Shown piece after piece: positions 4,775 to 7,212 of a DNA stretch of 17,902 nt. The notes beneath the pieces are model-generated. The model ran no database searches and was not told where the DNA came from. It worked only from the letters and a program-made list of their open reading frames with translations. The position numbers and the translations under genes were made by a program. Position 1 is the first letter of the stretch. Each line of letters opens with the position of its first letter. Location of the stretch: IMG/VR virus record IMGVR_UViG_2778261135_000007, one strand, 5' to 3'. The stretch comes from a virus. Lineage: Duplodnaviria > Heunggongvirae > Uroviricota > Caudoviricetes.

Positions 4775-4827
4775 CGGCGGCAGAGCAGTCACGGAGTAAA
4801 ACTGATACCGCCAAACGTCACCAGAAA
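4775..4827 (-). ncRNA. dicF: DicF small regulatory RNA (53 nt; targets ftsZ mRNA)
   Basis: Reverse complement of 4775-4827 reads TTTCTGGTGACGTTTGGCGGTATCAGTTTTACTCCGTGACTGCTCTGCCGCCG, matching recalled DicF over essentially its full length. Followed on the minus strand by a T-run (TTTTT). Lies between the ydfC region and dicB, as in the Qin dicB operon. Confidence 0.85.
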
Positions 4828-5086: not shown

Positions 5087-5662
5087 TTAAGGATTCATTA
5101 AGCAATGTCGCAACCACCAATAAATCCGCTTAAGAACATGAAAATTGATTACTGGTATAAAGCGCTTACAGTTGTTGGCGCTGCGTTGTTTGTCTTTAAT
5201 GGAACGTCTTTTTTTGACAGATATCCCGTTGTTCCATTGGGTTTTTTGTCCTCCGGCATCTTTTTTATTGGTTTGGGGGAGTGGATTAATCACCCTCTCA
5301 AAGTGAGATTTATTGGTCCTGGAGTTTGGACTCGTGGATATAATCGTTCTTCGTGCGCACTCGGTATCATCTTCGACATACTTGGTTGTTTCCTGATTGT
5401 TACAGGAGTCGTCAAGTTCTTCTGATGTAAAACCGCAAATGGGGCACGTAACGGGAATTTTGAAAAGCGTTTCTCCGGGTTCCAGAACAAAATTTTCTGC
5501 GGTCTGATTTTGCTTCTCATATTTGTGCTCCGCGTCATTGTGAGAGCACATTCTTATTCTGAGTGCCTGTTTAAACTCACTGAAGCTGAGAGCTTCTTCG
5601 CCTTCGGCAAGGCCTTCGAAGTATTCTTCGTAAGCCTTTTCCATGATTGTGTCGAAATCCAT
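5087..5662 (-). CDS. YdfB-like protein, extended form (about 191 aa) with a CPICG zinc-ribbon-like element
   Basis: Start ATG overlaps the ydfA stop (TGATATG junction). N-terminus MDFDTIMEKAYEEYFEGLAEGEEALSFSEFKQAL.... The C-terminal half is K/N/Q-rich and is antisense to a hydrophobic plus-strand ORF, so the 3' portion may not be coding. Confidence 0.4.
   Translation of the reverse strand: MDFDTIMEKAYEEYFEGLAEGEEALSFSEFKQALRIRMCSHNDAEHKYEKQNQTAENFVLEPGETLFKIPVTCPICGFTSEELDDSCNNQETTKYVEDDTECARRTIISTSPNSRTNKSHFERVINPLPQTNKKDAGGQKTQWNNGISVKKRRSIKDKQRSANNCKRFIPVINFHVLKRIYWWLRHCLMNP
5105..5425 (+). CDS. Hypothetical membrane protein (about 3 predicted hydrophobic helices), antisense to the ydfB-like ORF
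   Basis: 106-aa ORF with three hydrophobic segments (YWYKALTVVGAALFVF, VVPLGFLSSGIFFIGLGEWI, ALGIIFDILGCFLIVTGVV). AAGGA Shine-Dalgarno about 11 nt upstream. Opposite to the operon direction, so it may be only the mirror image of the minus-strand ORF. Confidence 0.2.
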   Translation: MSQPPINPLKNMKIDYWYKALTVVGAALFVFNGTSFFDRYPVVPLGFLSSGIFFIGLGEWINHPLKVRFIGPGVWTRGYNRSSCALGIIFDILGCFLIVTGVVKFF

Positions 5663-5663
5663 A

Positions 5664-5819
5664 TCACTCACCTGAGTTTCTTTCCAGCCAGCGACGGGCA
5701 CCATTTTCGGTTTTAAACGTTTTGCTTTTGGTATACGTCATCGCGGTGAACGTACCGTCCTGGTTGGGGAACACGCCACATACCAGAGATTCGCTGTTGC
5801 CAAGATCGATAGTATCCAT
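5664..5819 (-). CDS. ydfA: YdfA-like small protein (51 aa)
   Basis: Internal ATG gives MDTIDLGNSESLVCGVFPNQDGTFTAMTYTKSKTFKTENGARRWLERNSGE, 51 aa. First gene downstream of dicA on the same strand, as in Qin. The 77-aa track ORF is an upstream extension. Confidence 0.65.
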   Translation of the reverse strand: MDTIDLGNSESLVCGVFPNQDGTFTAMTYTKSKTFKTENGARRWLERNSGE

Positions 5820-5985
5820 GCTGACCTCATTTCCCCTTAACGCCGGGGTAGCGGAACTGTTTGCTGAGAACACCGTGCGGTGTGTTGATGCAAACAAGAT
5901 TAGCCATGACTAACATATTGGTCAAGTGATTTTGTATGTTATAGTTAACATAATTAATATAGTAAAAGATAACTCATTGATGATG

Positions 5986-6393
5986 TTATCTTTTATTTGT
6001 CCGCTGACGGGCTTTTAGTAATTCTTCAAAGAGTTTATTGAAGTTTTTTACTCGAGCTCGCATTTCGGCGAGCTGGGTATCCTGTTCTGATTCTGGCAGT
6101 GCATTAAACAGCTCAAGGAGCTCTAGTTCTTTGGGAGATAAGGCAACTGGCTTCTCAACAGGTGGTGTTGGTTGCTTGTCTTCATCGCCAAATAGAATCC
6201 ATGTTGGTGAGCATTGCAATACTTTGCTGAGGGCAAAAAGGTTCTTCCCTGTAGGTTCACTATCATCCCGTTCCCATTGTGATACAGACACATGGGAGAT
6301 TTTCAGGGCTTTAGCAAGAGACCTTTGGGTGTGTTTGAGGTTTTTCCGACGATACCTAATGCGTTCGCCGATAGTTAAATTTTTTGTATCCAT
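5986..6393 (-). CDS. dicA: Repressor DicA (cI/C2-like HTH repressor of the dicB operon), 135 aa
   Basis: 135-aa translation (MDTKNLTIGERIRYRRKNLKHTQRSLAKALKISHVSVSQWER ... LLKARQRTNKR) matches recalled DicA nearly residue for residue. HTH_XRE-type helix-turn-helix near the N-terminus. Divergent from dicC. Confidence 0.9.
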   Translation of the reverse strand: MDTKNLTIGERIRYRRKNLKHTQRSLAKALKISHVSVSQWERDDSEPTGKNLFALSKVLQCSPTWILFGDEDKQPTPPVEKPVALSPKELELLELFNALPESEQDTQLAEMRARVKNFNKLFEELLKARQRTNKR

Positions 6394-6476
6394 AGTTAGC
6401 TAATGCTAAATCGTATTGACTATGTTTTTGTTAACATCTATTTTGTTAGTTATGACTAACAATCAAGGTGTTTTAA
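6394..6476. promoter_or_regulatory. dicA-dicC divergent promoter/operator region with three palindromic elements
   Basis: 83-bp intergenic region contains TTAGCTAA (6395-6402), TGTTAACA (6429-6436) and a 20-bp palindrome TTGTTAGTtatgACTAACAA (6443-6462). A TTGACT -35-like hexamer (6415-6420) with a TATTTT -10-like hexamer 17 bp downstream faces dicC. This is the analogue of the OR/PRM/PR region. Confidence 0.5.
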
Positions 6477-6707
6477 ATGCTTAAAACTGACGCTCTTTTG
6501 TATTTCGGTTCAAAAACAAAACTTGCACAAGCAGCTGGTATTCGTTTGGCTTCGCTTTATAGCTGGAAAGGGGATTTAGTTCCCGAAGGTCGCGCGATGC
6601 GTCTACAGGAGGCATCTGGCGGGGAGCTTCAGTATGACCCCAAAGTTTATGACGAATATCGTAAGACGAAGCGGGCGGGGCGGTTGAACAATGAAAATCA
6701 CTCCTGA
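6477..6707 (+). CDS. dicC: Cro-like regulator DicC (76 aa)
   Basis: 76-aa translation MLKTDALLYFGSKTKLAQAAGIRLASLYSWKGDLVPEGRAMRLQEASGGELQYDPKVYDEYRKTKRAGRLNNENHS matches recalled DicC. AAGGTG Shine-Dalgarno 6 nt upstream. Divergent from dicA. Confidence 0.85.
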   Translation: MLKTDALLYFGSKTKLAQAAGIRLASLYSWKGDLVPEGRAMRLQEASGGELQYDPKVYDEYRKTKRAGRLNNENHS

Positions 6708-7212
6708 ACAGGCTCGTGAGGCTCTGGATGCCTGGATATGTCGACCAGGAATGACACAGGAGCAGGCGACGATATTAATCACTGAAGCATTCTGGGCTTT
6801 GAAAGAGCGCCCGAACATCGATGTTCAGCGTGTCACAGATGAAGGTGGCGCGGTTGATCAGCGAGCGCTTGGCGTTAATCGAGTGAAGATATTCGAACGC
6901 TGGAAGGCTATCGACACCAGGGATAAGCGTGAAAAGTTCACGGCGCTAGTGCCTGCAATTATGGAGGCTATCCGGATTAATGATTTCAGGTTGTATCGTG
7001 AAATTAGTGACGGAAAAAGCATCACGTACATGATCGCCGGGTTAAACAAAGAATATGGCGATGTGGTGGAGTCCGGACTGCTTTTTGCTGATCCTGCCGT
7101 AGTGGATCGTGAAACTGACGAACTTATAGAAAAAGCAATTGCTTTCAAACTTGCGTATCGACAGCAATACCAACAAAAAGCTGGATGGAATTATGAGCCT
7201 TCTTTTTGCTGA
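6691..7212 (+). CDS. Hypothetical protein in the cII slot (possibly YdaT-like regulator)
   Basis: 173-aa ORF overlapping the dicC stop, directly downstream of the cro-like gene. Family assignment is by position only. Confidence 0.6.
   Translation: MKITPEQAREALDAWICRPGMTQEQATILITEAFWALKERPNIDVQRVTDEGGAVDQRALGVNRVKIFERWKAIDTRDKREKFTALVPAIMEAIRINDFRLYREISDGKSITYMIAGLNKEYGDVVESGLLFADPAVVDRETDELIEKAIAFKLAYRQQYQQKAGWNYEPSFC

What the first reader, a model, noticed from the sequence alone, without database searches (positions are those of the whole stretch)
6394..6476. Candidate DicA/DicC operator palindromes in the divergent intergenic region
Three palindromes (TTAGCTAA, TGTTAACA and the 20-bp TTGTTAGTtatgACTAACAA) are packed into 83 bp between the divergent repressor and cro-like genes. 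The largest overlaps the likely dicC transcription start. dicA appears to lack a Shine-Dalgarno sequence, which suggests leaderless or weakly initiated translation, as for lambda cI from PRM.
Basis: seen in the sequence. Interest (0 to 1): 0.4.

Follow-up and report, generated by a model that had tools for sequence, protein, structure and literature searches.

The report
Known Qin prophage dicA/dicC operator region
This 83-bp stretch is the well-studied on/off switch between the repressor gene dicA and the cro-like gene dicC of an E. coli Qin-type prophage; its 20-bp palindrome is the published DicA operator Oc, so the finding is correct in outline but not new.

Summary
The three palindromes are present exactly as described, in the 83-bp dicA–dicC intergenic region of a Qin-type E. 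coli prophage that is 98% identical to K-12.

- **20-bp palindrome (6443-6462):** it is base-for-base the published DicA operator Oc. It spans -8 to +12 of the dicC promoter. DicA binding there has been shown in vivo.
- **dicA mRNA:** it is already documented as leaderless, with a start site 3 nt before the ATG.
- **The two 8-bp palindromes:** they are not significant on their own (P = 0.09) and are mis-delimited.
  - TTAGCTAA is the left part of a 14-bp dyad, TTAGCTAATGCTAA. It shares the core TTAG-N6-CTAA with Oc and with a site on the dicB promoter.
  - That core occurs exactly three times in the 17.9-kb window (0.19 expected), each time on a promoter -10/start. It is invariant in 56 of 56 distinct homologous regions, even where TTAGCTAA itself is broken.
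  - TGTTAACA is lost in divergent relatives and scores poorly as an operator.

The region most likely works as a P22/lambda OR-like bistable switch. Verdict: real, ordinary and already known. The refined operator definition and a promoter-competition idea are minor additions.

The parts
5986..6393 (-). dicA, a 135-aa repressor. It has an N-terminal helix-turn-helix domain like that of P22 C2 and no peptidase domain.
   Evidence: ORF. RefSeq annotates the homologous place as dicA. Pfam HTH_3 E=1e-15. PDB P22 C2 N-terminal domain E=8e-20.
6477..6707 (+). dicC, a 76-aa Cro-like regulator.
   Evidence: ORF. Annotated as dicC in the homologous place. Pfam P22_Cro E=1.7e-11.
6443..6462 (.). Oc, the validated DicA operator (TTGTTAGTTATGACTAACAA; core TTAG-N6-CTAA at 6446-6459). 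It covers -8 to +12 of dicCp.
   Evidence: Identical to the Oc cloned in pHL1105; a single A>C change abolished binding in vivo (PMC3441716). The site is annotated at -8 to +12, and clones carrying it are selected for mutations there. It is the top PWM hit in the window. The core is kept in 53 of 56 relatives.
6393..6412 (.). Oa, an operator-like dyad (core TTAGCTAATGCTAA, 6396-6409) lying on the dicA promoter -10, the start site and the last base of the start codon.
   Evidence: One of only 3 TTAG-N6-CTAA matches in the window. Core invariant in 56 of 56 relatives. Third-ranked PWM hit. DicA binding was not detected in vivo by Yun et al.. That DicC, or DicA at high concentration, binds here is inferred.
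6418..6437 (.). Om, a doubtful middle site (core TATGTTTTTGTTAA, 6421-6434, 5 of 8 core matches).
   Evidence: In 25-bp register with Oa and Oc. PWM rank only 59 of 17,883. TGTTAACA is not conserved. No DicA binding in vivo. In phage mEp460 a half-matching site sits in the same register.
6416..6444 (+). dicC promoter: -35 TTGACT (6416-6421), 17-bp spacer, -10 TATTTT (6439-6444). Start site about 6451.
   Evidence: The only sigma-70-type match found in the scan. The K-12 5'RACE start site puts the -11 adenine at position 6440. This agrees with the -8/+12 annotation of Oc.
6396..6431 (-). dicA promoter: start site at 6396 (mRNA begins ACU-AUG), -10 TAGCAT (6403-6408), poor -35 ACAAAA (6426-6431).
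   Evidence: The start site was mapped in K-12 3 nt upstream of the ATG (PMC4681348 Table S3). The sequence here is identical to K-12 from 6389 to 6441. The hexamers were read from the sequence and are inferred.
6465..6470 (+). dicC Shine-Dalgarno sequence AAGGTG, 6 nt before the ATG.
   Evidence: Read from the sequence.
5897..5916 (.). OB1, an operator on the dicB (PL-like) promoter. Core TTAGCCATGACTAA at 5900-5913. It overlaps the leftward -10 (TAATCT, reverse complement of 5897-5902) and the spacer; the -35 is TTGACC (reverse complement of 5920-5925).
   Evidence: Second-ranked PWM hit. A perfect core is present at the same place in 74 of 79 distinct relatives. Literature: DicA represses dicBp (PMC10448788).
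5932..5951 (.). OB2, a second and weaker operator upstream of the dicBp -35 (TTGTATGTTATAGTTAACAT).
   Evidence: Fourth-ranked PWM hit. Relatives carry better or perfect versions such as TTAGTTTTGGCTAA. The window copy has two C>T changes relative to K-12.
5963..5995 (-). Probable intrinsic terminator of dicA. The hairpin overlaps the stop codon and separates dicA from dicBp.
   Evidence: Perfect 11-nt inverted repeat. RNA fold -11.4 kcal/mol, z = -5.0, 0 of 200 shuffles as good. A relative has a different but longer stem.

Best explanation
The 83-bp region is the OR-type bidirectional control region of a Qin-type lambdoid prophage. It is of the P22 immC kind.

**Promoter layout.** Two divergent promoters are interdigitated.
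- dicCp runs rightward: -35 at 6416-6421, -10 at 6439-6444, start about 6451.
- dicAp runs leftward: -10 at 6403-6408, start at 6396, 3-nt leader, so the mRNA is leaderless.

**Shown in K-12, with identical sequence here.** A DicA dimer binds the 20-bp dyad Oc (6443-6462) over the -10 and start of dicCp. This blocks dicC transcription and permits dicA transcription. DicA also represses dicBp.

**Inferred here.**
1. The recognition core is TTAG-N6-CTAA, which lies on the -10/start of all three promoters (dicBp, dicAp, dicCp).
2. The copy on dicAp (Oa) is where the Cro-like DicC, or excess DicA, shuts off dicA, as OR3 does in lambda.
3. The two start sites are only 55 bp apart and the -35 regions overlap. 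RNA polymerase at the strong dicCp should therefore exclude the weak dicAp. If so, 'activation' of dicA by DicA at Oc may be relief of promoter competition.

The TGTTAACA palindrome is probably incidental sequence in the promoter spacer, or part of a weak middle site.
For: **Identity**
- 98.1% identical to K-12 dicA-dicC, and the homologous place is annotated as such.
- The intergenic region differs from K-12 at only 2 positions (6442, 6464); all three palindromes are identical.

**Oc**
- Exact match to the published operator. A single base change abolished binding. The 5'RACE start site lies inside Oc. DicA at Oc represses dicC and enables dicA (PMC3441716).
- The DicA site is annotated at -8/+12, and library cloning selects for mutations there.
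- Reg-Seq recovers a single repressor site at dicCp.

**Leaderless dicA:**

**DicC**
- The strongest DicC ChIP-seq signal is at this locus. The motif is a palindrome with TT(A/C/T)G and C(G/A/T)AA halves. dicA falls 48- to 84-fold on DicC induction (PMC11430063).

**Core motif**
- 3 matches in 17.9 kb against 0.19 expected, all on promoters.
- Invariant at Oa in 56 of 56 relatives and at Oc in 53 of 56, at DicA identities of 63-100% with gap-free spacing.
- Present at dicBp in 74 of 79 relatives.
- The four best PWM hits in the window are Oc, OB1, Oa and OB2.

**Co-variation control**
- Heteroimmune phage mEp460 has a repressor 58% identical with a different recognition helix.
- It carries a different dyad, TTGAGAAAACTCAA, at the Oc- and OB1-equivalent places, and a weaker copy next to the repressor ATG.

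**Proteins:** P22 C2-like helix-turn-helix domain and P22_Cro family.
Against: [quoted passage not shown]
- Selection for mutations in cloned dicCp concentrates at Oc only. So the role of Oa rests on conservation and position, not on binding data.
- Conservation of Oa is confounded, because the same bases encode the dicAp -10 and the leaderless start.
- The centre of Oa (CTAATG) departs from the YYATRR centre seen at Oc and OB1.
- My assignment of the names Om and Oa to 6418-6437 and 6393-6412 is inferred. The 1986/1988 papers that defined them could not be read.
- The promoter-competition idea is geometric inference only. Yun et al. instead propose direct activation.
- The PWM was trained on perfect-core sites, so it is partly circular.
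Confidence: 0.9

Rival explanations
1. All three palindromes are independent operators bound by DicA. This would be a tripartite OR1/OR2/OR3 arrangement with cooperative filling of the two weaker sites.
For: - Three 20-bp windows lie in exact 25-bp register: 6393, 6418, 6443.
- Three operators were proposed from sequence in the original papers and are repeated in later ones.
- The heteroimmune phage mEp460 also has a half-matching middle site in register.
- A test of isolated sites cannot detect cooperative binding.
Against: - DicA did not bind Om or Oa in vivo.
- Reg-Seq sees a single repressor site at dicCp.
- Titration-driven mutations cluster only at Oc.
- Om has 5 of 8 core matches and ranks 59th in the window.
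- TGTTAACA is lost in relatives that keep an identical DicA recognition helix.
- DicA lacks the long C-terminal domain through which lambda CI and P22 C2 bind cooperatively.
Confidence: 0.2
2. The palindromes act as RNA or DNA hairpins, for example a structured dicC leader or a terminator, rather than as protein-binding sites.
For: If fully transcribed, the 20-bp repeat would fold (-6.6 kcal/mol, z = -3.7).
Against: - The dicC start site lies inside the repeat, so only the right arm is transcribed.
- The real leader, 6451-6500, has no unusual structure (z = 0.15).
- dicA transcripts start at 6396 and run away from the palindromes.
- The arms are perfectly complementary in only 17 of 56 relatives, whereas the TTAG/CTAA cores are fixed.
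- There is no Rfam hit in the intergenic region.
Confidence: 0.02
3. The short palindromes are chance products of AT-rich promoter DNA, or serve host factors such as ArcA, YgbI, YjdC or H-NS/Cnu, rather than the phage regulators.
For: - Two 8-bp palindromes arise in 9% of shuffles.
- TGTTAACA is not conserved.
- A preprint reports an unidentified repressor site in dicCp that pulls down ArcA and YgbI (PMC12133099).
- YjdC is enriched at the dic locus by ChIP-qPCR (PMC9283627).
- TGTTA resembles the ArcA half-site (from memory).
Against: - This reading fits TGTTAACA only. The TTAG-N6-CTAA dyad that contains TTAGCTAA is far too conserved and too specific to be chance.
- The TGTT(A/T) copies in the region (6423, 6429, 6445) are not 11 bp apart, as ArcA direct repeats are (read; spacing rule from memory).
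- The position of the preprint's site is not given in its text.
Confidence: 0.35

Closest known systems
E. coli K-12 Qin prophage dicA-dicC intergenic region (operators Oc, Om, Oa; Bejar/Bouche 1986-88; Yun et al. 2012)
   Same: It is the same locus in another strain. Identity is 98.1% over 821 bp. Oc, both 8-bp palindromes, the dicCp -35 and the dicA leader are all identical. The dicB/DicF operon lies downstream of dicA.
   Different: There are two substitutions in the intergenic region: 6442 T for C in the dicCp -10, and 6464 C for A. DicA residue 2 is D rather than E. OB2 at dicBp carries two C>T changes. The prophage is less decayed here, with intact YdaT-family and replication genes where K-12 has the ydfX pseudogene.
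Salmonella phage P22 immC (C2 repressor, Cro, OR1-3)
   Same: The DicA N-terminal domain is homologous to the P22 C2 DNA-binding domain (E=8e-20), and DicC belongs to the P22_Cro family. The genes are divergent with a short operator-bearing gap. The operators are 14-bp-core dyads with outer TTA...TAA (P22 operator sequence from memory).
   Different: DicA is 135 aa and has no S24 peptidase or RecA-cleavage domain. It is relieved by the antirepressor Rem rather than by cleavage (PMC10448788). The core is TTAG-N6-CTAA, against TTAAG-N4-CTTAA in P22 (from memory). Only one site has been shown to bind the repressor.
Phage lambda OR / PRM-PR switch with leaderless cI mRNA
   Same: A divergent repressor/cro pair. 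The repressor mRNA is leaderless and comes from a weak promoter that depends on repressor being bound at the neighbouring operator. An operator overlaps the repressor promoter, as OR3 does. There is a second operator cluster at a PL-like promoter.
   Different: The start sites are 55 bp apart here, against about 82 bp in lambda (lambda figure from memory), so the promoters overlap. Oc is centred near -56.5 of dicAp, not at the -42 position of OR2. The middle site is not supported. The proteins are not homologous to lambda CI or Cro beyond the helix-turn-helix fold.
Rac prophage racR-ydaS-ydaT and e14 ymfK immunity regions
   Same: These are cryptic lambdoid prophage repressors of E. coli with leaderless mRNAs (PMC4681348). 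A YdaT-family gene follows the cro-like gene.
   Different: The repressor specificities and operator sequences are different. They were not compared in detail here.

Membership tests
Qin-type dicA/dicC immunity region of E. coli | Nucleotide identity and synteny with the K-12 locus (dicB/DicF operon, ydfA, dicA, then divergent dicC) | tested here: met
   98.1% identity over 821 bp to BW25113. Annotation reads ydfA, dicA, dicC. DicF RNA lies at 4775-4826 on the minus strand.
Qin-type dicA/dicC immunity region of E. coli | Operator Oc sequence TTGTTAGTTATGACTAACAA over the dicCp -10 and start | tested here: met
   Exact match at 6443-6462 to the pHL1105 insert. The position agrees with the -8/+12 annotation.
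Qin-type dicA/dicC immunity region of E. coli | DicA protein physically binds Oc in this strain | not testable with these tools
   Shown only for K-12, by in vivo assays. DicA here differs from K-12 at a few residues outside the recognition helix.
Lambdoid OR-type tripartite operator (lambda / P22 immC) | Divergent repressor and cro genes separated by a short operator-bearing region | tested here: met
   83-bp gap between a gene encoding a P22 C2-like helix-turn-helix protein and a gene of the P22_Cro family.
Lambdoid OR-type tripartite operator (lambda / P22 immC) | Three related dyad sites at regular spacing | tested here: inconclusive
   Oa and Oc have perfect cores 50 bp apart. The middle site is in register but matches only 5 of 8 core positions, ranks 59th by PWM and is poorly conserved.
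Lambdoid OR-type tripartite operator (lambda / P22 immC) | Repressor with a C-terminal S24 peptidase / oligomerisation domain that is cleaved with RecA | tested here: not met
   The 135-aa protein matches helix-turn-helix families only. The literature says it lacks the Ala-Gly cleavage site and is controlled by the antirepressor Rem.
Lambdoid OR-type tripartite operator (lambda / P22 immC) | Cooperative repressor binding to adjacent sites | not testable with these tools
   No binding data. Isolated Om and Oa were negative in vivo.
Leaderless mRNA | Transcription start within a few nucleotides of the start codon, and no Shine-Dalgarno sequence | tested here: met
   No Shine-Dalgarno sequence in the sequence. 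In K-12 the start site is 3 nt upstream by differential RNA-seq and RLM-RT-PCR and by Rend-seq criteria. The sequence from 6389 to 6441 is identical to K-12. The start site itself was not measured in this strain.

The most novel reading that the evidence does not exclude
The functional unit is a 14-bp dyad, TTAG-N6-CTAA, placed on the -10/start of each of the three early promoters. The copy at 6396-6409, invariant in all relatives, sits on the leaderless dicA start. It would be the Cro-type (DicC) shut-off site rather than a DicA site. Because dicAp and dicCp are interdigitated, with starts 55 bp apart, DicA would 'activate' its own gene simply by removing RNA polymerase from dicCp, not by touching polymerase as lambda CI does.
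Probability: 0.35. Interest if true: 0.3.

Novelty: already known. Interest (0 to 1): 0.1.

Why it matters
[quoted passage not shown] Its main elements are already published: the operator Oc, the dicC start site, leaderless dicA, repression by DicC and the antirepressor Rem.

This analysis adds three small things:
- a cleaner, conservation-based definition of the operator core;
- evidence that the site on the dicA start is under strong constraint although DicA was not seen to bind it;
- a testable alternative (promoter competition) to direct auto-activation.

Tried and rejected
- **Original papers:** I tried to read the papers that defined Oa, Om and Oc (PMC311701, PMC338298). They are not held. 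The mapping of the names Om and Oa to coordinates is therefore my inference from the 25-bp register.
- **RNA-structure reading:** rejected. The start site lies inside the repeat and the real leader is unstructured.
- **Palindromes as TGTTA-N6-TAACA-type sites:** the only matches are elsewhere in the window and at chance level.
- **Full 20-bp Oc pattern with up to 3 mismatches:** this finds only Oc itself. The family is defined by the 14-bp core, not by the outer arms.
- **ArcA-type direct repeats:** the TGTT(A/T) copies are not 11 bp apart, so I did not pursue this. The preprint gives no coordinates for its site.
- **Lally et al. compendium (PMC12059191):** its main text does not mention DicA or DicC.
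- **gSELEX papers:** they give no site-level data.
- **Distant loci L007 and L008** (31-39% identity): their intergenic regions are unrelated, so they were excluded from the comparison.

Full report
**1. The observation**

The window was read directly and searched for the exact strings.
- TTAGCTAA lies at 6396-6403.
- TGTTAACA lies at 6429-6436.
- TTGTTAGT-tatg-ACTAACAA lies at 6443-6462.

Positions 6394-6476 are exactly the 83-bp, 26.5% G+C gap between a 135-aa ORF on the minus strand (5986-6393) and a 76-aa ORF on the plus strand (6477-6707).

Taken alone, the short palindromes are not remarkable. In 20,000 dinucleotide-preserving shuffles of the 83 bp, two or more 8-bp palindromes occur 9% of the time. 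An inverted repeat with 8-nt arms occurs 2.4% of the time.

**2. What the locus is**

The 821 bp around the finding are 98.1% identical to E. coli K-12 BW25113. RefSeq annotates that place as ydfA, dicA, dicC and ydfX of the Qin prophage. About 2,500 of 5,426 complete E. coli genomes carry a match.

- The intergenic region differs from K-12 at only two positions, 6442 and 6464. All three palindromes are identical.
- DicA matches Pfam HTH_3 and the DNA-binding domain of P22 C2 repressor (E=8e-20 against PDB 1ADR/2R1J). It has no peptidase domain.
- DicC belongs to the P22_Cro family.
- The next gene belongs to the YdaT family.
- Rfam finds DicF RNA at 4775-4826 on the minus strand.
- The region is also 98.2% identical to a deposited phage genome, PhiR42_1 from ECOR13, where the genes are labelled cI, Cro and cII.

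**3. What is already published**

- **Oc.** Yun et al. 2012 (PMC3441716) cloned 5'TTGTTAGTCATAACTAACAA as operator Oc. This is the exact reverse complement of 6443-6462.
  - DicA binds it in vivo, and a single A>C change abolishes binding.
  - High-copy clones of the promoter region survive only with mutations in Oc.
  - The dicC 5' end mapped by 5'RACE puts the -11 adenine of the -10 hexamer 11 nt upstream.
  - DicA at Oc represses dicC and enables dicA transcription.
  - The authors also state that two other operators predicted from sequence alone, Om and Oa, did not bind DicA (data not shown).
- **Independent confirmation.** A 2026 preprint annotates the DicA site at -8 to +12 of dicCp. It finds that library clones are enriched for mutations there. 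With the -11 adenine at 6440, the start is 6451, and -8/+12 is exactly 6443-6462.
- **Reg-Seq** classifies dicCp as a single-repressor promoter.
- **Leaderless dicA.** Romero et al. 2014 (PMC4681348) list dicA among five leaderless E. coli mRNAs. The start is 3 nt upstream of the ATG and was confirmed by RLM-RT-PCR. A 2022 PNAS paper lists it among 'known leaderless genes'.
- **DicC.** ChIP-seq gives its strongest signal at this locus. The motif is a palindrome with TT(A/C/T)G and C(G/A/T)AA halves. dicA drops 48- to 84-fold on DicC induction (PMC11430063).
- **Rem.** DicA is relieved by the antirepressor Rem rather than by RecA-dependent cleavage (PMC10448788).

**4. Anatomy in window coordinates**

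| Element | Position | Sequence or note |
|---|---|---|
| dicCp -35 | 6416-6421 | TTGACT |
| dicCp spacer | | 17 bp |
| dicCp -10 | 6439-6444 | TATTTT |
| dicC start | about 6451 | 26-nt leader |
| dicC Shine-Dalgarno | 6465-6470 | AAGGTG |
| dicAp start | 6396 (minus) | mRNA begins ACU-AUG |
| dicAp -10 | 6403-6408 (minus) | TAGCAT |
| dicAp -35 | 6426-6431 (minus) | ACAAAA, very poor |

The two starts are 55 bp apart. The dicCp -35 lies between the dicAp -10 and -35, so the promoters are interdigitated.

**5. What the short palindromes really are**

A search for inverted repeats with the geometry of Oc shows that TTAGCTAA is the left end of TTAGC-taat-GCTAA (6396-6409). This shares TTAG-N6-CTAA with the core of Oc.

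That pattern occurs exactly three times in the 17.9-kb window. The expectation is 0.19, and none of 200 shuffles reached three. The three sites are:
- 5900-5913, on the -10 and spacer of the leftward dicB promoter;
- 6396-6409, on the -10 and start of dicAp;
- 6446-6459, on the -10 and start of dicCp.

I collected 123 loci encoding DicA homologues at 63-100% identity from genomes, viral contigs and metagenomes. They give 56 distinct intergenic regions, which align without gaps.

| Feature | Kept in distinct relatives |
|---|---|
| Oa core TTAG-N6-CTAA | 56 of 56 |
| Oc core TTAG-N6-CTAA | 53 of 56 |
| 8-bp palindrome TTAGCTAA | 49 of 56 (broken to TTAGCCAA, TTAGGCAA, TTAGCTTA or TTAGTTAA with the 14-bp dyad intact) |
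| 8-bp palindrome TGTTAACA | 39 of 56 (weighted 0.59) |

TGTTAACA becomes TGTTACCT, TATTACCA, GGCTTGTG and others. No new palindrome replaces it, although the DicA recognition helix is invariant in these proteins.

The centre of Oc varies as YYATRR. Downstream of dicA, 74 of 79 distinct relatives carry a perfect core at the same place beside the dicBp -35. Many carry a second site about 35 bp further on.

A symmetric PWM from the relatives' sites ranks Oc, OB1, Oa and OB2 as the four best positions in the window. The middle site Om (6418-6437) is only 59th of 17,883. This PWM is conditioned on perfect cores, so it is partly circular.

**6. A co-variation control**

Phage mEp460 has a 135-aa repressor 58% identical to DicA, with a different recognition helix. 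It keeps the same architecture but carries a different dyad:
- TTGAGAAAACTCAA at the Oc-equivalent position, and a near copy downstream of the repressor gene;
- a weaker version, TTTAGATATCTTAA, two bases from the repressor start codon;
- a half-matching site in between, at 24-25-bp spacing.

This supports reading the dyads as operators. It also supports an operator on the repressor's own start as a conserved design feature.

**7. Mechanism**

*Shown in K-12 on identical sequence.* DicA at Oc occludes dicCp and permits dicA expression. DicA represses dicBp. DicC represses dicA. dicA mRNA is leaderless.

*Inferred.*
- Oa is the site through which DicC (or excess DicA) shuts off dicAp, as OR3 does in lambda. 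It covers -17 to +4 of dicAp (20-bp site 6393-6412; core -14 to +1), and DicC recognises TTNG/CNAA palindromes.
- The centre of Oa is atypical (CTAATG). It is forced by having to encode the -10 TAGCAT. This may explain why DicA alone does not bind it.
- The promoters overlap, so a polymerase on the strong dicCp should exclude the weak dicAp. 'Auto-activation' by DicA at Oc (centred near -56.5 of dicAp) may therefore be relief of competition rather than a lambda-like contact.
- Om is at best a weak or cooperative site. TGTTAACA is probably incidental.

**8. Rivals**

- **Hairpin reading.** It fails because the dicC start lies inside the repeat and the real leader is unstructured (z = 0.15).
- **Three independent DicA operators.** This conflicts with the in vivo data, though cooperative filling has not been excluded.
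- **Host-factor binding.** ArcA/YgbI pulldown and YjdC ChIP-qPCR could involve the middle region. No coordinates are available.

**9. Verdict**

The feature is real, functional and already known. Novelty is limited to delimiting the operator core by conservation, flagging the strongly constrained site on the leaderless dicA start, and proposing a testable alternative for auto-activation. Interest is low.

Noticed in passing
window 5963-5995 (minus strand): A perfect 11-nt inverted repeat, TAAAAGATAAC/GTTATCTTTTA, overlaps the dicA stop codon. It folds at -11.4 kcal/mol (z = -5.0) and is followed by a short U-run. It is a probable dicA terminator that insulates dicBp. A 95%-identical relative (L002) has a different, longer stem.
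   Followed up: partly
window 5932-5951: The second dicBp operator (OB2) is more degenerate here than in K-12. Two C>T changes (5939, 5945) turn ...CTATAGCTAA into ...TTATAGTTAA and create the near-palindrome ATGTTATAGTTAACAT. Other relatives carry a perfect TTAGTTTTGGCTAA at this place.
   Followed up: partly
L130 (phage mEp460_ev081, LR597641.1) 1129-1209 and about 640-665: This heteroimmune relative has the same gene layout but a different operator dyad (TTGAG-N4-CTCAA) at the Oc- and PL-equivalent positions. A P22-like TTTAGATATCTTAA abuts its repressor start codon.
   Followed up: partly
window 4775-4826 (-), 10326-10500 (+), 13795-14187 (+), 16697-17082 (+): Rfam hits above gathering score: DicF sRNA, a sok antitoxin RNA (hok/sok module), and two cspA-type thermoregulator 5' UTRs (cold-shock gene paralogues, as in Qin).
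   Followed up: no
window 6691-8158: Downstream of dicC there is an intact 173-aa YdaT-family (cII-position) gene and a 339-aa replication-type ORF, where K-12 has only the ydfX/ydfW remnants. The region is 98.2% identical to the deposited phage PhiR42_1. This prophage is therefore less decayed than K-12 Qin and may be inducible.
   Followed up: partly
window 5087-5704 (minus strand): A 205-aa ORF with no Pfam match lies between the ydfA homologue and DicF, where K-12 has the short ydfB and ydfC genes. It may be a fused or alternative version, or it may not be a real gene.
   Followed up: no
L003 (JAIIUG010000151.1, 2.5-kb contig): A metagenome-assembled genome labelled Collinsella sp. carries a contig with a 99%-identical dicA and the full operator region. 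This is most likely E. coli DNA mis-binned into that genome.
   Followed up: no
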